From assembly GCF_001677475.2 (NCBI RefSeq), contig NZ_CP015229.1: a DNA stretch of 64,000 nt; one strand, 5' to 3'. The notes under the pieces were generated by a model that ran no database searches, had not been told where the DNA came from, and saw only the letters and a program-made list of their open reading frames with translations. The stretch comes from Escherichia coli. GTDB lineage: Bacteria; Pseudomonadota; Gammaproteobacteria; Enterobacterales; Enterobacteriaceae. Both the position numbers and the translations under genes were made by a program. Shown here piece after piece: positions 4,874 through 60,080 of this stretch; the first letter of the stretch is position 1; each line of letters begins with the position of its first letter.

Positions 4874-6250
4874 ATGAAAATTATCATTCTGGGTGCCGGC
4901 CAGGTTGGCGGCACACTGGCGGAAAACCTGGTTGGCGAGAACAACGATATTACTGTTGTCGATACCAACGGTGAGCGTCTGCGGACCTTACAGGATAAAT
5001 TTGACCTGCGGGTCGTGCAGGGGCATGGCTCTCATCCACGCGTATTGCGGGAGGCAGGTGCCGACGACGCCGATATGCTGGTTGCTGTAACCAGTTCAGA
5101 TGAAACCAATATGGTTGCCTGCCAGGTAGCCTACTCACTTTTCAACACCCCTAATCGCATCGCTCGTATCCGCTCACCAGACTACGTGCGCGATGCCGAT
5201 AAGCTATTTCATTCAGATGCTGTGCCGATTGATCATCTGATCGCACCAGAGCAGTTGGTTATCGATAATATTTACCGACTGATTGAGTATCCCGGCGCAT
5301 TGCAGGTGGTGAACTTCGCTGAGGGTAAAGTCAGCCTGGCTGTGGTTAAAGCCTATTATGGCGGCCCGCTGATTGGTAATGCACTTTCGACCATGCGCGA
5401 ACATATGCCACATATCGATACTCGTGTGGCAGCAATTTTCCGCCACGATCGCCCCATTCGTCCGCAAGGTTCGACCATTGTTGAAGCTGGTGATGAAGTG
5501 TTCTTTATTGCCGCTTCACAGCATATCCGCGCGGTGATGAGTGAATTACAGCGACTGGAAAAACCGTATAAGCGGATCATGCTGGTTGGTGGCGGTAATA
5601 TCGGTGCAGGGCTGGCGCGTCGTCTGGAAAAAGATTACAGCGTTAAACTCATCGAACGTAATCAGCAGCGCGCTGCTGAACTGGCGGAAAAGTTGCAGAA
5701 TACGATCGTCTTTTTTGGTGATGCGTCGGATCAAGAACTGCTGGCTGAAGAACATATCGATCAAGTTGATCTGTTTATTGCCGTCACCAACGATGACGAG
5801 GCCAATATCATGTCCGCCATGCTTGCCAAACGTATGGGTGCGAAAAAGGTGATGGTATTGATCCAGCGTCGCGCTTATGTGGATCTGGTTCAGGGGAGCG
5901 TGATCGATATTGCGATTTCACCACAACAAGCAACTATTTCTGCGTTGCTTAGCCATGTGCGAAAAGCAGATATTGTTGGTGTTTCCTCATTGCGCCGCGG
6001 CGTAGCAGAAGCTATTGAAGCCGTTGCTCACGGTGATGAAAGCACCTCACGCGTTGTCGGCAGAGTCATTGACGAAATCAAGCTACCGCCAGGAACGATT
6101 ATTGGAGCGGTGGTACGTGGAAACGACGTGATGATTGCCAATGACAATCTGCGCATTGAGCAAGGCGATCACGTAATTATGTTCCTCACAGATAAAAAGT
6201 TTATTACCGACGTCGAAAGACTGTTCCAGCCAAGTCCTTTCTTCTTGTAA
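4874..6250 (+). CDS. trkA: Trk potassium uptake protein TrkA (tandem NAD-binding domains)
   Basis: 458-aa ORF with two Rossmann GxGxxG motifs ([19 protein letters not shown]). Confidence 0.96.
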
Positions 6251-6253
6251 TTA

Positions 6254-6285
6254 ATAAGGCGTCTAATGACGCCTTATTATTTCCC
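6254..6285 (+). terminator. Probable intrinsic terminator after trkA
   Basis: Stem ATAAGGCGTC (6254-6263), loop TAAT, stem GACGCCTTAT (6268-6277), then T-rich tract. Confidence 0.6.
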
Positions 6286-6379
6286 TTTGATTATCAAGGA
6301 TTAATTAAATTCATTCCTGGCAGGAAAATGGCTTAACATTTGTTAGACTTATGGTTGTCGGCTTCATAGGGAGAATAAC

Positions 6380-6790
6380 ATGAGCATTATTAAAGAATTT
6401 CGCGAATTTGCGATGCGCGGGAACGTGGTGGATTTGGCGGTGGGTGTCATTATCGGTGCGGCATTCGGGAAGATTGTATCTTCACTGGTTGCCGATATCA
6501 TTATGCCACCTCTGGGCTTATTAATTGGCGGGATCGACTTTAAACAATTTGCTGTCACGCTACGCGATGCGCAGGGGGATATCCCTGCTGTTGTGATGCA
6601 TTACGGTGTCTTCATTCAAAACGTCTTTGATTTTCTGATTGTGGCCTTTGCCATCTTTATGGCGATTAAGCTAATCAACAAACTGAATCGGAAAAAAGAA
6701 GAACCAGCAGCCGCACCAGCACCAACTAAGGAAGAAGTATTACTGACAGAAATTCGTGATTTGCTGAAAGAGCAGAATAACCGCTCTTAA
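6380..6790 (+). CDS. mscL: Large-conductance mechanosensitive channel MscL
   Basis: 136-aa [36 protein letters not shown]... Confidence 0.97.
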
Positions 6791-7005
6791 CAAACGCCTG
6801 AAAGCAGAAGGCCAGTGGTAAAAAAGTGATTTACTTTCTTGCCACTGGCCTCCCAGTTCCCCCGATTGCCATGTTTTCCTTTTCGCATGTAACTGCCTTT
6901 CCCTTTCTTATTTTTCTCTACTCGCTGTCGGAATAAGGGATCATGTAGTAATGCTTCTATCGCATTATCCTTTATCTGCCCTTTAGTATGCTGATATCGG
7001 CTCAT
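6787..7005 (-). CDS. arfA: Alternative ribosome-rescue factor ArfA (YhdL)
   Basis: 72-aa [54 protein letters not shown]...; convergent with mscL, overlapping its stop by 4 nt. Confidence 0.9.
6810..6850 (-). ncRNA. arfA 3-prime stem-loop (RNase III cleavage hairpin inside the coding sequence; probable terminator for convergent mscL/arfA)
   Basis: Perfect 9-bp arms GGCCAGTGG (6810-6818) and CCACTGGCC (6842-6850) with partly paired interior; covers arfA codons about 53-66. Confidence 0.6.
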
Positions 7006-7060
7006 AAAAACTCCAGTTGGTTATTTAACGGCGCGAGTGTAATCCTGTCAGTGCAAAAAA

Positions 7061-7486
7061 TCAACAGCCACTCTTAACGCCACTCGCCCCTTGTTCAAGA
7101 GCTTCAAGAATCGAGCAATAAACACTGCTATGGGCGGTCCCACAACAGGCATCGTTAAGGCGTTGCAAGGAACGCTGCATACTCTGCAACTCGGCTATCC
7201 GTGCTTCGACTTCCTGCAATCTTTCCTGCACAATGCCTTTTGACTCCTGACAGGTATGGTGTTCAGGATCGATACGGATCGACAGCAACTCGCGGATCGA
7301 CTCTAGACTGAAACCTAGTTGTCTGGCATGGCGGATAAATTTCAATCGCTGGAGATCGCTTTCGGTATACAGGCGAAACCCACCTTCAGTACGCACTTCA
7401 TGCTCCATCATCTGCTGTTTTTCGTAATAACGAATCGTGTCGGGTGTTACTTCCGCCATTTTTGCCAGCTCACCAATGCGATACAT
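7061..7486 (-). CDS. zntR: MerR-family Zn(II)-responsive regulator ZntR
   Basis: 141-aa ORF MYRIGELAKMAEVTPDTIRYYEKQ... (MerR HTH) with C-terminal Cys/His metal ligands. Confidence 0.95.
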   Translation of the reverse strand: MYRIGELAKMAEVTPDTIRYYEKQQMMEHEVRTEGGFRLYTESDLQRLKFIRHARQLGFSLESIRELLSIRIDPEHHTCQESKGIVQERLQEVEARIAELQSMQRSLQRLNDACCGTAHSSVYCSILEALEQGASGVKSGC

Positions 7487-7496
7487 ACATACTCCA

Positions 7497-7865
7497 CTAG
7501 TTATCGTTGATTTTATTCAACAACTTGTCAGCATAATCGCCGCGTAAAAAATCGGTACTCAGTCCAGCTTGTCGCAGCTTCAATTCCAGTAATGACAATC
7601 GACGGCTAACCTCTTGATATTGCGGATCATCGTGACGGATACCTCTCAGGATATCCAGAAGCTGAATTGCTTCCCTCCGCTGCTCAAGTTCTGGCGGTAA
7701 GCAACCGGCATTCTTCAGCAAGCGATACCCCGCACGTAATTCCGGTGGCACATGAGAATCATCATCCAGTATCAATGGTTCGCCGCTACCTGCCAGGTTA
7801 TCAAACTCACCTTTCGCTTGCGCTTCTGCTATATGACGCTCTGCCCACTGGTCAAGTAACCACAT
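7497..7865 (-). CDS. yhdN: DUF1992 protein YhdN
   Basis: 122-aa ORF in conserved position between rplQ and zntR. Confidence 0.85.
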   Translation of the reverse strand: MWLLDQWAERHIAEAQAKGEFDNLAGSGEPLILDDDSHVPPELRAGYRLLKNAGCLPPELEQRREAIQLLDILRGIRHDDPQYQEVSRRLSLLELKLRQAGLSTDFLRGDYADKLLNKINDN

Positions 7866-7930
7866 ATATACTCCAGGGGATGAACAAAAAGAGTACAGCT
7901 ATTGTAGATAAGTGGGGATGCTACGGGTAT

Positions 7931-7958
7931 AAAAAAACCCGCCGGGGCGGGTTTTTTT
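7931..7958 (-). terminator. Intrinsic terminator at end of alpha operon (after rplQ)
   Basis: A7-CCCGCC-GGGG-CGGG-T7 palindrome; reads as GC stem plus T-run on the minus strand 14 nt after the rplQ stop. Confidence 0.8.
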
Positions 7959-7971
7959 ACGTTGCTTCAGA

Positions 7972-8379
<408 letters not shown>

Positions 8380-8395
8380 TTAACCTGTGATCCGG

Positions 8396-9385
8396 TTACT
8401 CGTCAGCGATGCTTGCCGGTGGCCAGTTTTCCAGGCGCATGCCCAGAGACAGTCCACGGGAAGCCAGCACGTCTTTAATCTCAGTAAGAGATTTTTTACC
8501 AAGGTTAGGCGTTTTAAGGAGCTCAACCTCGGTACGCTGTACCAGATCACCGATATAGTGGATAGCTTCTGCTTTAAGGCAGTTAGCAGAGCGGACAGTC
8601 AATTCCAGATCGTCAACAGGGCGCAGCAGGATCGGATCGAACTCTGGTTTCTCTTCTTTCACTTCAGGCTGACGTACATCACGTAAGTCAACGAAAGCTT
8701 CCAGTTGTTCAGCCAGAATGGTTGCCGCACGACGAATCGCCTCTTCAGGATCGATTGTGCCGTTGGTTTCCATTTCGATGACCAGCTTGTCCAGGTCGGT
8801 ACGCTGTTCTACACGCGCTGCTTCAACATTGTAGGCAATACGCTCCACAGGGCTGTAGCATGCGTCGACCAGCAGACGGCCGATTGGGCGCTCATCTTCT
8901 TCCGAATGAATTCGGGTAGAAGCCGGCACATAACCACGACCGCGCTGAACTTTGATACGCATGCTAATAGACGCGTTCTCATCGGTCAGGTGGCAGATCA
9001 CGTGCTGCGGCTTGACGATTTCGACATCACCGTCGTGGGTGATATCGGCTGCAGTCACAGGGCCAATGCCAGATTTATTCAAGGTAAGAATAACTTCATC
9101 TTTGCCCTGAACTCTCACCGCCAGCCCTTTCAGGTTGAGCAGGATTTCCAGGATATCTTCCTGAACGCCTTCTTTGGTGCTGTACTCATGTAGTACACCA
9201 TCAATCTCAACCTCGGTCACCGCGCAACCCGGCATCGATGAGAGCAGAATACGGCGCAGTGCGTTACCCAGAGTATGGCCAAAGCCACGCTCTAAAGGCT
9301 CAAGGGTCACCTTGGCGTGCGTCGAACTCACTTGCTCGATATCAACCAGGCGCGGTTTTAGAAACTCTGTCACAGAACCCTGCAT
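8396..9385 (-). CDS. rpoA: RNA polymerase alpha subunit
   Basis: 329-aa [29 protein letters not shown]... Confidence 0.98.
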
Positions 9386-55116: not shown

Positions 55117-55128
55117 TCCCGTCGGAGT

Positions 55129-55162
55129 GGCGCGTTACCTGGTAGCGCGCCATTTTGTTTCC
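55129..55162 (+). terminator. Intrinsic terminator after crp
   Basis: GC-rich hairpin GGCGCGTTACC / GGTAGCGCGCC 13 nt after the crp stop, followed by ATTTTGTTT. Confidence 0.7.
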
Positions 55163-55166
55163 CCCG

Positions 55167-57257
55167 ATGTGGCGCAGACTGATTTATCACCCCGATATCA
55201 ACTATGCACTGCGACAAACGCTGGTGCTATGTTTGCCCGTGGCCGTTGGGTTAATGCTTGGCGAATTGCGATTCGGTCTGCTCTTCTCCCTCGTTCCTGC
55301 CTGTTGCAATATTGCGGGCCTTGATACGCCTCATAAACGTTTTTTCAAACGCTTAATCATTGGTGCGTCGCTGTTTGCCACCTGTAGCTTACTGACACAG
55401 CTGCTACTGGCAAAAGATGTTCCCCTGCCCTTTTTGCTGACCGGATTAACGCTGGTACTTGGCGTCACTGCTGAGCTGGGGCCATTGCACGCAAAATTGC
55501 TTCCCGCATCCCTGCTCGCCGCCATTTTTACCCTCAGTCTGGCGGGATACATGCCGGTCTGGGAACCGTTGCTCATCTATGCGTTGGGCACTCTCTGGTA
55601 CGGATTGTTTAACTGGTTTTGGTTCTGGATCTGGCGCGAACAACCGCTGCGCGAGTCACTTAGCCTGCTGTACCGTGAACTGGCAGATTATTGTGAAGCC
55701 AAATACAGCCTGCTTACCCAGCACACCGACCCTGAAAAAGCGCTGCCGCCACTGCTGGTGCGCCAGCAAAAAGCGGTCGATCTAATTACCCAGTGCTATC
55801 AGCAAATGCATATGCTTTCCGCGCAAAATAATACTGACTACAAGCGGATGCTGCGTATTTTCCAGGAGGCGCTGGATTTACAGGAACATATTTCGGTCAG
55901 TTTGCATCAGCCGGAAGAGGTGCAAAAGCTGGTCGAGCGTAGCCATGCGGAAGAAGTTATCCGCTGGAATGCGCAAACCGTCGCCGCTCGCCTGCGCGTG
56001 CTGGCTGATGACATTCTTTACCATCGCCTGCCAACGCGTTTTACGATGGAAAAGCAAATTGGCGCGCTGGAAAAAATCGCCCGCCAGCATCCGGATAATC
56101 CGGTTGGGCAATTCTGCTACTGGCATTTCAGCCGCATCGCCCGCGTGCTGCGCACCCAAAAACCGCTCTATGCCCGTGACTTACTGGCCGATAAACAGCG
56201 GCGAATGCCATTACTTCCGGCGCTGAAAAGTTATCTGTCACTAAAGTCTCCGGCGCTACGCAATGCCGGACGACTCAGTGTGATGTTAAGCGTTGCCAGC
56301 CTGATGGGCACCGCGCTGCATCTGCCGAAGTCGTACTGGATCCTGATGACGGTATTGCTGGTGACGCAAAATGGCTATGGCGCAACCCGTCTGAGGATTG
56401 TGAATCGCTCCGTGGGAACCGTGGTCGGGTTAATCATTGCGGGCGTTGCCCTGCACTTTAAAATTCCCGAAGGTTACACCCTGACCTTGATGCTGATTAC
56501 CACCCTCGCCAGCTACCTGATATTGCGCAAAAACTACGGCTGGGCGACGGTCGGCTTTACCATTACCGCAGTGTATACCCTGCAACTGTTGTGGCTGAAC
56601 GGTGAGCAGTACATCCTTCCGCGTCTTATCGATACCATTATTGGCTGTTTAATTGCTTTCGGCGGTACCGTCTGGCTGTGGCCACAGTGGCAGAGCGGGT
56701 TATTGCGTAAAAACGCCCATGATGCTTTAGAAGCCTATCAGGAAGCGATTCGCTTGATTCTGAGCGAGGACCCGCAACCAACGCCACTGGCCTGGCAGAG
56801 AATGCGGGTAAATCAGGCGCATAACACTCTGTATAACTCATTGAATCAGGCGATGCAGGAACCGGCATTCAACAGCCATTATCTGGCAGATATGAAACTG
56901 TGGGTAACGCACAGTCAGTTTATTGTTGAACATATTAATGCCATGACCACGCTGGCACGGGAACACCGGGCATTGCCACCTGAACTGGCACAAGAGTATT
57001 TACAGTCTTGTGAAATCGCCATTCAGCGTTGTCAGCAGCGACTGGAGTATGACGAACCGGGGAGTTCTGGCGATGCCAATATCATGGATGCGCCGGAGAT
57101 GCAGCCGCACGAAGGCGCGGCAGGTACGCTGGAGCAGCATTTACAACGGGTTATTGGTCATCTGAACACCATGCACACCATTTCGTCGATGGCATGGCGG
57201 CAGCGACCGCATCACGGGATTTGGCTGAGTCGCAAGTTGCGGGATTCGAAGGCGTAA
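55167..57257 (+). CDS. yhfK: Inner-membrane protein YhfK (FUSC-like)
   Basis: 696 codons from ATG 55167 (MWRRLIYHPDINYALRQ...); the ORF-track start at 55155 is a TTG lying inside the crp terminator hairpin. Confidence 0.88.
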   Translation: MWRRLIYHPDINYALRQTLVLCLPVAVGLMLGELRFGLLFSLVPACCNIAGLDTPHKRFFKRLIIGASLFATCSLLTQLLLAKDVPLPFLLTGLTLVLGVTAELGPLHAKLLPASLLAAIFTLSLAGYMPVWEPLLIYALGTLWYGLFNWFWFWIWREQPLRESLSLLYRELADYCEAKYSLLTQHTDPEKALPPLLVRQQKAVDLITQCYQQMHMLSAQNNTDYKRMLRIFQEALDLQEHISVSLHQPEEVQKLVERSHAEEVIRWNAQTVAARLRVLADDILYHRLPTRFTMEKQIGALEKIARQHPDNPVGQFCYWHFSRIARVLRTQKPLYARDLLADKQRRMPLLPALKSYLSLKSPALRNAGRLSVMLSVASLMGTALHLPKSYWILMTVLLVTQNGYGATRLRIVNRSVGTVVGLIIAGVALHFKIPEGYTLTLMLITTLASYLILRKNYGWATVGFTITAVYTLQLLWLNGEQYILPRLIDTIIGCLIAFGGTVWLWPQWQSGLLRKNAHDALEAYQEAIRLILSEDPQPTPLAWQRMRVNQAHNTLYNSLNQAMQEPAFNSHYLADMKLWVTHSQFIVEHINAMTTLAREHRALPPELAQEYLQSCEIAIQRCQQRLEYDEPGSSGDANIMDAPEMQPHEGAAGTLEQHLQRVIGHLNTMHTISSMAWRQRPHHGIWLSRKLRDSKA

Positions 57258-59984: not shown

Positions 59985-60057
59985 TTGATGCCTCCCTGAA
60001 CGTGTCCATTTGCCACAAGTATAAGCGGCAAATCCGGGTTACGCCGGGAGAGCAGAA

Positions 60058-60080
60058 GCGCGGGCAAGATTGCCCGCGCG
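60058..60080 (-). terminator. Probable terminator hairpin after ppiA
   Basis: GCGCGGGCAA-GA-TTGCCCGCGC inverted repeat 9 nt after the ppiA stop. Confidence 0.5.

What the first reader, a model, noticed from the sequence alone, without database searches (positions are those of the whole stretch)
6787..7005. arfA carries a strong stem-loop inside its own 3-prime coding region, convergent with and overlapping mscL
The 72-codon arfA ORF overlaps the mscL stop by 4 nt on the opposite strand. Its codons about 53-66 form a hairpin with perfect 9-bp arms (GGCCAGTGG/CCACTGGCC, 6810-6850). By established knowledge this hairpin is cut by RNase III, producing a non-stop mRNA whose truncated product is the active rescue factor, stabilised only when tmRNA trans-translation is limiting. 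The same hairpin likely terminates mscL transcription, coupling the two genes.
Basis: partly seen in the sequence, partly recalled or inferred. Interest (0 to 1): 0.4.

Follow-up and report, generated by a model that had tools for sequence, protein, structure and literature searches.

The report
Known arfA non-stop hairpin in E. coli
This is the well-studied stem-loop inside the E. coli arfA gene, which truncates the arfA message so that the backup ribosome-rescue factor accumulates only when the main tmRNA system is overloaded. It is real and conserved but already described, and it is probably not a simple terminator for the neighbouring mscL gene.

Summary
The window carries E. coli trkA-mscL-arfA-zntR. 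arfA (6787-7005, minus strand) overlaps the mscL stop by 4 nt. A hairpin at 6805-6855 contains the perfect 9-bp arms GGCCAGTGG/CCACTGGCC (6810-6818/6842-6850). Its arfA-sense fold is the most stable 56-nt fold of 31,972 windows scanned across the 64 kb (z -4.96, 0/200 shuffles).

The hairpin sits at the same arfA position in all 80 related loci fetched, with 95.9% of pair cells paired. Four distant arfA homologs with no mscL neighbour also carry an ORF-internal hairpin.

The main interpretation is published knowledge (Garza-Sanchez 2011, Chadani 2011 and Schaub 2012, read here only through later papers). RNase III cuts the hairpin, the mRNA loses its stop codon, a truncated active ArfA is made, and tmRNA controls its level. 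The released 54-nt fragment is annotated in MG1655 as yrdG.

The added claim that the hairpin terminates mscL transcription is not supported in its simple form. The mscL-sense hairpin has no U-tract. Published maps place mscL 3' ends at 6852-6857, listed as RNase E-dependent and as PNPase/RNase II trimming stops, with a Rho-dependent region about 40 nt downstream. That fits Rho termination followed by trimming back to a protective stem-loop. Coupling between the two genes exists, but through antisense RNA and RNase III (Morra 2023).

Verdict: already known, low interest.

The parts
6787..7005 (-). arfA coding sequence: 72 codons plus stop, encoding alternative ribosome-rescue factor A.
   Evidence: ORF listed. 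Pfam ArfA PF03889 matches residues 4-45, E 1.1e-25. The sequence matches the PDB ArfA chain 5h5u_3 over residues 1-72, E 1.6e-46. RefSeq annotates arfA here in E. coli genomes.
6380..6790 (+). mscL coding sequence (136 aa). Its stop codon overlaps the arfA stop codon by 4 nt (6787-6790).
   Evidence: ORF. NCBIfam MscL equivalog NF001841 scores 284 bits against a cut-off of 225. Annotation.
6805..6855 (-). Full arfA-sense stem-loop (arfA nt 151-201, codons 51-67). It has a 14-bp lower stem, a C.A mismatch, an 8-bp upper stem and a 5-nt loop (6828-6832).
   Evidence: MFE structure. Inverted repeat. Ranked first of 31,972 windows. Conserved in 80 loci with 95.9% of cells paired.
6810..6850 (.). 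They form in either transcript.
   Evidence: Read directly from the sequence and found as an inverted repeat.
6840..6841 (-). Published RNase III cut 1, after arfA nt 165 (the end of codon 55). C165 (6841) faces A187 (6819) as a C.A mismatch. The upstream product is a non-stop mRNA encoding ArfA residues 1-55.
   Evidence: Cut sites quoted from Morra 2023. Coordinates mapped. An independent published 3' end lies at MG1655 3438485, which is window 6841. The C.A mismatch is present in 69 of 75 distinct sequences.
6816..6817 (-). Published RNase III cut 2, after arfA nt 189. It is staggered by about 2-3 nt across the stem from cut 1.
   Evidence: mapped.
6787..6840 (-). 54-nt arfA 3' fragment released by RNase III (yrdG, the arfA sRNA). 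It is further cut into pieces of about 24 and 30 nt and is antisense to the mscL 3' UTR.
   Evidence: MG1655 annotates ncRNA yrdG (b4846) at 3438431-3438484, which is window 6787-6840. Function according to Morra 2023.
6797..6809 (-). U-rich tail following the arfA-sense stem (UUCUGCUUUCAGG). A published arfA 3' end lies at 6803 (nt 203), upstream of the stop codon at nt 217-219.
   Evidence: T-score 1.82. Across 81 sequences, 4-7 U in the 10 nt after the stem. A fragment from 3438673 to 3438447 accumulates in the pnp mutant. The review states that the stem-loop can cause premature termination.
6791..6857 (+). mscL 3' UTR containing the mirror-image stem-loop (6809-6851). Mapped 3' ends lie at 6852, 6854 and 6857.
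   Evidence: Term-seq 3' end at 3438498, which is window 6854. The 3' rne end is at 6857, the PNPase trimming stop at 6852 and the RNase II trimming stop at 6854. Morra 2023 gives the UTR as +1 to +64.
6852..6951 (+). C-rich, G-poor stretch downstream of the mscL-sense hairpin (antisense to arfA). It is the probable rut / Rho-termination region, with the published peak at 6892.
   Evidence: C/G ratio 1.75. Rho termination region at 3438536(+): Rho score 5.84, p 3.4e-28.
7029..7064 (-). Inferred arfA promoter: -35 TTGATT at 7064-7059, a 17-nt spacer, -10 TACACT at 7041-7036. A published 5' end lies at 7029.
   Evidence: Hexamers read from the sequence. The match is 8 of 12, below the 9 of 12 threshold of the scan. 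The 5' end at 3438673 maps to window 7029. The promoter assignment is inference.

Best explanation
The feature is the regulatory stem-loop of E. coli arfA. As arfA is transcribed from the minus strand, nt 151-201 of its own coding region fold into a very stable hairpin.

The message is then truncated upstream of its stop codon in one of two ways. RNase III can cut across the stem, after nt 165 and nt 189. Alternatively, the transcript can end at the U-rich tail just past the stem, around nt 203. Either way the mRNA has no stop codon.

Ribosomes stall at its 3' end. When tmRNA-SmpB is available, the nascent ArfA is tagged and degraded. When trans-translation is saturated or absent, untagged truncated ArfA (about 55 residues, containing the whole conserved domain at residues 4-45) accumulates and recruits RF2 to rescue stalled ribosomes.

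The hairpin lies in DNA shared with the 3' UTR of the convergent mscL gene, so the mscL mRNA carries the mirror-image hairpin. There it most likely works as a 3'-exonuclease barrier that fixes the mscL 3' end after Rho-dependent termination further downstream. It also serves as the target of the antisense 54-nt arfA fragment and of RNase III.

Shown here: the structure, its statistical strength, its conservation, the asymmetry between the two strands, and its presence without an mscL neighbour. Taken from the literature: the cleavage sites, tmRNA control, the 3' ends, Rho dependence and the antisense effect. Inferred: that the mscL 3' end arises by Rho termination plus trimming.
For: Identity of the locus:
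- The 801-bp query 6300-7100 matches 5425 of 5426 complete E. coli genomes, annotated mscL | arfA | zntR.
- Pfam ArfA matches at E 1.1e-25, and PDB ArfA chains match.
- The region has no indels against MG1655, which allowed direct coordinate transfer.

Structure:
- Searches give the fold and the inverted repeat.
- The arfA-sense hairpin is the most stable local fold in the 64 kb.

Conservation:
- In 80 loci from Enterobacteriaceae, Erwiniaceae and Providencia the hairpin starts at arfA nt 154, while the annotated ORF length varies from 66 to 105 aa. The stop codon position is therefore not what is conserved.
- 95.9% of pair cells are paired, against 42-64% when the 3' partners are slid by 1-3 columns.
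- Three pairs show double changes (28 cells), and 0 of 500 shuffles reach the observed covariation score.
- RNAalifold predicts the same stem independently.
- Third-codon positions in the 5' arm never vary.

Strand asymmetry:
- 232 cells are G.U, pairing only in the arfA sense. 84 cells are A.C, pairing only in the mscL sense.
- 69 of those 84 are the conserved C165.A187 mismatch at the published RNase III cut.
- Mean hairpin free energy is -32.1 kcal/mol in the arfA sense and -29.6 in the mscL sense.

Independence from mscL: four distant arfA homologs with other neighbours each carry an ORF-internal hairpin followed by a U-rich tail.

Literature:
- Mechanism.
- The yrdG sRNA is annotated.
- arfA 3' ends at window 6841, 6820 and 6803, and a 5' end at 7029.
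- mscL 3' ends and trimming stops, and a Term-seq end at 6854 with a Rho score of 5.84 at 6892.
- The general rule that Rho-dependent transcripts end just after stable stem-loops lacking U-tracts, are protected from PNPase and RNase II, and have rut sites immediately downstream.
Against: - No experiment was done on this exact sequence. It differs from K-12 at 13 of 691 aligned positions, one of them in the stem (6811, G here and A in K-12).
- The primary papers (Garza-Sanchez 2011, Chadani 2011, Schaub 2012, Ju 2019, Kawano 2005) were not held in the library. Their content is used only as quoted by later papers.
- The lower stem is almost invariant, so most pairs say nothing about covariation. 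The 80 loci are closely related, so the shuffle statistics overstate independence.
- The arfA-sense 3' end at 6803 was reported as a fragment that accumulates without PNPase. It could be a trimming stop rather than a termination site.
- The Rho score uses 800-nt windows, so 6892 is only an approximate position.
- A Rho region also scores on the arfA strand (2.49 at window 6843). This is not explained by the simple model.
Confidence: 0.9

Rival explanations
1. The hairpin is a Rho-independent (intrinsic) terminator for mscL, so one structure ends mscL transcription and processes arfA.
For: - A stable mscL-sense stem-loop starts 19 nt after the mscL stop.
- Dominant mscL-sense 3' ends map 1-6 nt after the stem.
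- Morra 2023 cites SEnd-seq for a UTR of +1 to +64.
Against: - There is no U-tract. The tail is CCCAGTTCCCCCGAT with T-score 0.13, against 1.82 on the arfA strand and 2.91 for the trkA terminator.
- Only 1-4 U occur in the 10 nt after the stem in all 81 sequences.
- The consensus terminator scan does not call it.
- The 3' ends are listed as RNase E-dependent and as PNPase and RNase II trimming stops.
- Bicyclomycin raises downstream coverage about 5.8-fold.
- The anatomy matches the protective stem-loops of Rho-dependent transcripts.
Confidence: 0.08
2. In vivo, the non-stop arfA mRNA arises mainly by ORF-internal intrinsic termination at the hairpin plus U-rich tail, with the 3' end near 6803. 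RNase III cleavage would be secondary.
For: - The U-rich tail is conserved, with 4-7 U in 10 nt across 81 sequences, and scores 1.82.
- A published transcript runs from 7029 to 6803.
- The review states that the stem-loop can cause premature termination.
- Distant homologs carry classic terminator-like hairpins inside the ORF, for example GGGCUUUUU in L086.
- B. subtilis BrfA uses exactly this route.
Against: - The U-tract is interrupted (UUCUGCUUUC) and weaker than a bona fide terminator in the same window.
- A 3' end at 6841 coincides exactly with the RNase III site.
- The 54-nt downstream fragment exists and is annotated, so transcription must often pass the hairpin.
- The 6803 end accumulates in the pnp mutant and may be a decay intermediate.
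- The two routes are not exclusive. Both yield non-stop mRNA.
Confidence: 0.3
3. The element is a bidirectional, collision-type terminator or excludon. The hairpin pauses RNA polymerases arriving from both genes, and head-on collisions set both 3' ends, so transcription of each gene limits the other.
For: - The genes are convergent with overlapping transcripts. mscL-arfA is listed among the 165 convergent excludons of MG1655.
- The Liu laboratory describes hairpin-encoding overlapping bidirectional terminators that are neither intrinsic nor Rho-dependent.
- Morra 2023 takes the mscL UTR end from that SEnd-seq study.
Against: - I could not read Ju 2019, so I do not know whether this pair is on their list.
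- That class is described as Rho-independent, whereas this site has a strong Rho score.
- Morra 2023 found no cross-regulation at the promoter level and placed the arfA effect at the level of mscL mRNA stability.
- The arfA hairpin is present in homologs without a convergent partner.
Confidence: 0.15
4. The inverted repeat is a chance or coding-driven feature with no RNA-level role.
For: The stem lies in coding sequence, and the peptide motifs EASGK and TTGL are conserved.
Against: - It is the most stable local fold in 64 kb, and 0 of 200 shuffles match it.
- Synonymous positions in the arm never vary.
- The conserved Pfam domain ends at residue 45, upstream of the stem.
- Published mutational work exists.
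Confidence: 0.01

Closest known systems
E. coli K-12 arfA (yhdL) 3' coding-region stem-loop with RNase III sites, and the yrdG sRNA (Garza-Sanchez 2011, Chadani 2011, Morra 2023)
   Same: Same locus, gene order, hairpin position (nt 146-206 in the papers), loop, C.A mismatch and 4-nt overlap with mscL. The two regions differ at 13 of 691 aligned positions and have no indels.
   Different: There is one substitution in the stem: 6811 is G here and A in K-12. It is synonymous (Gly65 GGC versus GGU). The arfA-sense pair is G-C here instead of G.U, and it removes an A.C mismatch from the mscL-sense hairpin. Residue 71 is Val here and Ala in the closest E. coli loci. It lies in the tail, which is not part of the active protein.
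ArfA homologs made from non-stop mRNAs in other proteobacteria (Schaub 2012, as quoted)
   Same: An ORF-internal hairpin lies upstream of the stop codon. I found it in all 80 enterobacterial loci and in 4 distant homologs.
   Different: The distant homologs have unrelated stem sequences and cleaner U-tracts, so they look like terminators. None of them has an mscL neighbour.
Bacillus subtilis BrfA (Shimokawa-Chiba 2019, quoted)
   Same: A small RF2-dependent rescue factor whose ORF contains a structure that truncates its own mRNA, placing it under tmRNA control.
   Different: The protein family is unrelated. Truncation is by a Rho-independent terminator only, and no RNase III step has been described.
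Protective 3' stem-loops of Rho-dependent transcripts (Dar and Sorek 2018)
   Same: For the mscL-sense copy: a stable stem-loop without a U-tract, a 3' end immediately downstream, PNPase and RNase II stops, a C-rich stretch just downstream, and bicyclomycin-sensitive read-through.
   Different: Here the protective stem-loop is encoded by the coding sequence of a convergent gene. It is also an RNase III substrate and an antisense target.
Convergent excludons and overlapping bidirectional terminators (ExcludonFinder 2025, Ju 2019, Wang 2022)
   Same: A convergent pair with overlapping transcripts and a hairpin in the overlap. The pair is listed as an MG1655 excludon.
   Different: The overlap lies inside one partner's coding region and has a dedicated function for that partner, namely generating the non-stop mRNA. 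The bidirectional-terminator class is described as Rho-independent, unlike this site.

Membership tests
ArfA (Pfam PF03889) gene | The protein matches the ArfA profile or known ArfA sequences. | tested here: met
   PF03889 matches residues 4-45, E 1.1e-25. PDB ArfA chains match, E 1.6e-46. The closest database homologs (96-100% identity over 88-100% of the query) carry PF03889. NCBIfam returned no family for this protein, which is not evidence against membership.
ArfA (Pfam PF03889) gene | Enterobacterial synteny: arfA lies between mscL and zntR, convergent with mscL. | tested here: met
   All 80 related loci have a convergent mscL. The literature states the same arrangement.
arfA non-stop regulatory stem-loop | A stable stem-loop inside the 3' coding region, upstream of the stop codon. 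| tested here: met
   The stem covers 6855-6805, which is nt 151-201 of a 219-nt ORF. MFE -38.2 kcal/mol, z -4.96. Ranked first of 31,972 windows.
arfA non-stop regulatory stem-loop | The structure is conserved across homologs beyond what the coding sequence requires. | tested here: met
   95.9% of cells paired against 42-64% for slid controls, and 28 double-change cells. Synonymous sites in the 5' arm are invariant. The stop codon position varies while the hairpin stays fixed. Caveat: the lower stem is nearly invariant and the taxa are closely related.
arfA non-stop regulatory stem-loop | RNase III cleavage within the stem, giving an mRNA without a stop codon. | not testable with these tools
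   Published for K-12 after nt 165 and nt 189. The cuts map to 6841|6840 and 6817|6816. A published in vivo 3' end coincides with 6841. This window differs from K-12 by one stem base.
arfA non-stop regulatory stem-loop | The product is tagged by tmRNA and accumulates only when trans-translation is limiting. | not testable with these tools
   Literature only.
Intrinsic (Rho-independent) terminator of mscL | A G+C-rich stem-loop directly downstream of the gene. | tested here: met
   The mscL-sense stem covers 6809-6851, -30.6 kcal/mol.
Intrinsic (Rho-independent) terminator of mscL | A U-tract immediately 3' of the stem. | tested here: not met
   The tail is CCCAGTTCCCCCGAT, T-score 0.13. Only 1-4 U occur in 10 nt in all 81 sequences. 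The terminator scan does not call it.
Intrinsic (Rho-independent) terminator of mscL | Termination is independent of Rho and the 3' end is not made by processing. | not testable with these tools
   Published data point the other way: Rho score 5.84 at window 6892, and the 3' ends are RNase E-dependent and are PNPase and RNase II trimming stops.
ORF-internal intrinsic terminator of arfA | A stem-loop followed by a U-rich tail, with a 3' end a few nucleotides after the stem. | tested here: inconclusive
   The tail UUCUGCUUUC scores 1.82, which is intermediate, and it is conserved. A published 3' end lies at 6803, but it comes from a fragment that accumulates in the pnp mutant. The review says termination can occur.
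Protective 3' stem-loop of a Rho-dependent transcript (mscL sense) | A stable stem without a U-tract, a 3' end immediately downstream, exonuclease stops, and a C-rich rut region just downstream. | tested here: met
   Sequence features were tested here (C/G ratio 1.75 over 6852-6951). The 3' ends, exonuclease stops and Rho score come from the literature.
Convergent excludon / overlapping bidirectional terminator | Convergent genes whose transcripts overlap across a hairpin-encoding region. | tested here: met
   Geometry. The pair is listed as an MG1655 convergent excludon. Whether it is on the Ju 2019 bidirectional-terminator list could not be checked, and the Rho independence described for that class conflicts.

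The most novel reading that the evidence does not exclude
The two mirror-image hairpins may not be equivalent. Selection appears to maintain pairing in the arfA-sense RNA: there are many G.U pairs, every tolerated change but one in the lower stem (10-21/45-56) is a C-to-U change that keeps a G.U pair, and a near-universal C.A mismatch sits exactly at the RNase III cut. The mscL-sense copy would then be a tolerated by-product that has been co-opted as a Rho-terminator 3' cap. If so, natural variants such as G or A at 6811 (this window versus K-12) would change mscL mRNA stability and RNase III susceptibility without affecting ArfA control. That would be a strain-level tuning knob for MscL abundance.
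Probability: 0.2. Interest if true: 0.3.

Novelty: already known. Interest (0 to 1): 0.1.

Why it matters
The element is a textbook case of a gene that deliberately makes a defective (non-stop) message, so that its protein reports the capacity of the tmRNA system. It also links ribosome rescue to the mechanosensitive channel MscL through antisense RNA.

Nothing here changes that picture. The useful outcome is a correction: the mscL 3' end at this hairpin is better explained by Rho termination plus exonuclease trimming than by hairpin-driven intrinsic termination. The hairpin also belongs to arfA rather than to the gene pair, because it occurs without an mscL neighbour and its pairing is better preserved in the arfA sense.

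Tried and rejected
- Rfam at E up to 1 over 5500-8500 found no family for the hairpin, only a noise hit (MIR408, 18.8 bits against a gathering score of 64).
- The consensus terminator scan called neither strand of the hairpin. This is probably because of the internal mismatch on the arfA strand and the missing U-tract on the mscL strand.
- NCBIfam returned no ArfA model, so Pfam was used instead.
- The primary papers were not held in the library: Schaub 2012, Garza-Sanchez 2011, Kawano 2005 and Ju 2019. No supplementary tables were held for Dar and Sorek 2018.
- A 47-sequence ArfA alignment was too diverse to seed the genome scan. A 17-sequence alignment worked, but it returned only Enterobacterales. 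Distant homologs were therefore fetched one at a time.
- My first strand comparison used only the 44-nt core and appeared to show the mscL-sense copy as more stable. With the full stem, including the outer G.U pairs, the arfA sense is more stable. The asymmetry is suggestive, not decisive.
- Chance origin was rejected.
Full report
**What is in the sequence**

Window 4874-9385 reads trkA (+), mscL (+, 6380-6790), arfA (-, 6787-7005), zntR (-, 7061-7486), yhdN, rplQ and rpoA. The 801 bp around the finding match 5425 of 5426 complete E. coli genomes, where they are annotated mscL | arfA | zntR. MscL and ZntR pass NCBIfam equivalog cut-offs. The 72-residue product matches Pfam ArfA over residues 4-45 (E 1.1e-25) and matches the ArfA chains of ribosome-rescue cryo-EM entries. 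The two stop codons overlap by 4 nt (6787-6790), as in MG1655.

**The hairpin is real and far beyond chance**

- They belong to 19-nt arms that are 89% complementary around a 5-nt loop.
- The arfA-sense RNA folds at -38.2 kcal/mol (z -4.96, 0/200 shuffles), with the stem extended by G.U pairs to 6855-6805.
- The mscL-sense RNA folds at -30.6 kcal/mol.
- Among 31,972 overlapping 56-nt windows on both strands of the 64 kb, the arfA-sense hairpin is the most stable.
- Rfam has no family for it.

**Mapping to the literature**

The region aligns to MG1655 without indels, so window coordinate = MG1655 coordinate - 3,431,644 and arfA nt n = 7006 - n.

Morra et al. 2023 summarise the earlier work as follows:
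- The stem-loop spans nt 146-206.
- RNase III cuts after nt 165 and nt 189. This yields a stop-less mRNA and a 54-nt fragment, which is further split into pieces of about 24 and 30 nt.

In the window the cuts fall at 6841|6840 and 6817|6816. The first cut follows the C of a C.A mismatch that interrupts the stem, at the end of codon 55.

MG1655 annotates the 54-nt fragment as ncRNA yrdG, 'arfA-derived small regulatory RNA'. [quoted passage not shown]

An independent end-mapping study lists arfA 3' ends at window 6841, 6820 and 6803 and a 5' end at 7029. It also lists the 7029-to-6803 fragment as accumulating without PNPase. All three 3' ends lie upstream of the stop codon. The 5' end sits 7 nt downstream of a TACACT -10 hexamer, with TTGATT 17 nt upstream of it (my reading, an inference).

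**Comparative evidence generated here**

A genome scan returned 80 loci from Escherichia, Citrobacter, Salmonella, Enterobacter, Klebsiella/Raoultella, Kluyvera, Buttiauxella, Erwiniaceae and Providencia.

- In every locus the hairpin starts at arfA nt 154 and mscL is convergent. The annotated arfA ORF ranges from 66 to 105 codons. The hairpin is conserved and the stop codon is not, as expected if the stop codon is rarely used.
- On 75 distinct sequences, 95.9% of pair cells are standard pairs, against 42-64% when partners are slid by 1-3 columns.
- Three pairs carry compensatory double changes (28 cells), and no shuffle of 500 reaches the covariation score.
- RNAalifold finds the same stem.
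- The lower stem is nearly invariant, including third-codon positions of the 5' arm. This is constraint without covariation. The taxa are closely related, so these statistics are supportive rather than decisive.

Four distant ArfA homologs whose neighbours are not mscL each carry an ORF-internal hairpin followed by a U-rich tail. The hairpin therefore belongs to arfA and not to the gene pair.

**Strand asymmetry**

Across the stem, 232 cells are G.U, which pairs only in the arfA sense. 84 cells are A.C, which pairs only in the mscL sense. Of those 84, 69 are the conserved C165.A187 mismatch at the RNase III site. Mean stability is -32.1 kcal/mol in the arfA sense and -29.6 in the mscL sense.

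Apart from one A.C cell, the variants seen in the lower stem (pairs 10-21/45-56) are C-to-U changes in the 3' arm that keep G.U pairs in arfA RNA. The window-versus-K-12 difference at 6811 is of this kind and is synonymous. The 10 nt after the stem hold 4-7 U on the arfA strand and 1-4 U on the mscL strand in all 81 sequences. T-stretch scores are 1.82 and 0.13, against 2.91 for the trkA terminator in the same window.

**Does the hairpin terminate mscL?**

mscL-sense 3' ends do map just after the stem. Term-seq places one at window 6854, and Morra 2023 cites SEnd-seq for a UTR of +1 to +64.

Several points argue against intrinsic termination:
- The stem has no U-tract.
- The ends are listed as an RNase E-dependent end (6857), a PNPase trimming stop (6852) and an RNase II trimming stop (6854).
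- Bicyclomycin raises downstream mscL-sense coverage 5.8-fold, with the peak at window 6892 (p 3e-28).
- The next 100 nt are C-rich and G-poor, with a C/G ratio of 1.75.

This is the anatomy Dar and Sorek describe for Rho-dependent transcripts: a stable stem-loop without U-tract that blocks PNPase and RNase II, with the rut site immediately downstream. I therefore read the mscL-sense hairpin as a 3' protective cap for a Rho-terminated transcript, not as an intrinsic terminator.

A collision-type bidirectional terminator is not excluded, but its described Rho independence does not fit. A weaker Rho signal on the arfA strand (2.49 at window 6843) remains unexplained.

**Coupling of the two genes**

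The coupling is published. The arfA 3' fragment acts as an antisense RNA that halves the mscL mRNA half-life. [quoted passage not shown] Promoter-level cross-talk was not seen.

**Verdict**

The core interpretation is established knowledge from 2011-2012, extended in 2023, and is reflected in RefSeq annotation. The one new element, termination of mscL by the hairpin, is not supported in its simple form. Novelty: already known. Interest: low.

Noticed in passing
window 6811: This window has G where K-12 MG1655 has A. The change is synonymous in arfA (Gly65 GGC versus GGU). The stem pair is G-C here and G.U in K-12 in the arfA sense. In the mscL sense, K-12 has an A.C mismatch that this strain lacks.
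   Followed up: partly
window 6843 (minus strand), from MG1655 3438487: Adams 2021 lists a Rho-termination region on the arfA-sense strand inside the hairpin (Rho score 2.49, p 1.7e-5). It suggests that some arfA-sense read-through into antisense mscL is normally stopped by Rho. No model above accounts for it.
   Followed up: no
window 6787-6790; Morra 2023 Fig 1: Morra et al. class E. coli as 'proximal' (non-overlapping) for mscL-arfA. Both this window and the MG1655 annotation show a 4-nt CDS overlap. The cause is probably an annotation difference in their reference set.
   Followed up: no
L002-L081, arfA ORF ends: The annotated arfA ORF length ranges from 66 to 105 codons across Enterobacterales (for example 89 in Salmonella arizonae and diarizonae, 105 in an Erwinia MAG), while the hairpin start is fixed at nt 154. 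In L063, L065 and L070 the codon at the position aligned to the E. coli ATG is AGC, so their start codon lies elsewhere.
   Followed up: partly
L030 (NZ_CACSJJ010000125.1, 383 bp): A 383-bp contig labelled Arthrobacter sp. 18067 carries an enterobacterial arfA and mscL 3' end that differs at one residue from the Raoultella terrigena ArfA (L031). It looks like contamination of that assembly.
   Followed up: no
L082 1636-1725: In a distant arfA homolog, the ORF overlaps a convergent 344-aa gene (not mscL) by 36 nt. The arfA hairpin abuts that gene's stop codon. Convergent overlap at the arfA 3' end may therefore recur with different partners, as Morra 2023 also remarks.
   Followed up: partly
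window 7030-7039 and 7081-7090: A 10-nt inverted repeat (GGCGCGAGTG / CACTCGCCCC, 90% complementary, 41 nt apart) brackets the inferred arfA promoter and the zntR stop codon. Its function is unknown and it may be chance.
   Followed up: no
hit H1, NZ_AP024582.1 (E. coli Ec387): The best-scoring genome hit aligns in two pieces, with an IS1A transposase annotated under the match, which indicates an IS1 insertion in the mscL-arfA-zntR region of that strain. One of 5426 genomes has no match, and one copy lies on a plasmid. Shigella flexneri is reported to have lost arfA through an insertion element at this locus.
   Followed up: no
window 48873-48928 (-), 60025-60080 (+), 46309-46364 (-), 55117-55172 (+), 24385-24440 (-): These are the next most stable 56-nt local folds in the window (-28.5 to -30.8 kcal/mol). 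I did not examine them.
   Followed up: no
window 6396-6409: A near-perfect palindrome, AATTTCGCGAATTT, lies within the first codons of mscL. It is probably incidental.
   Followed up: no
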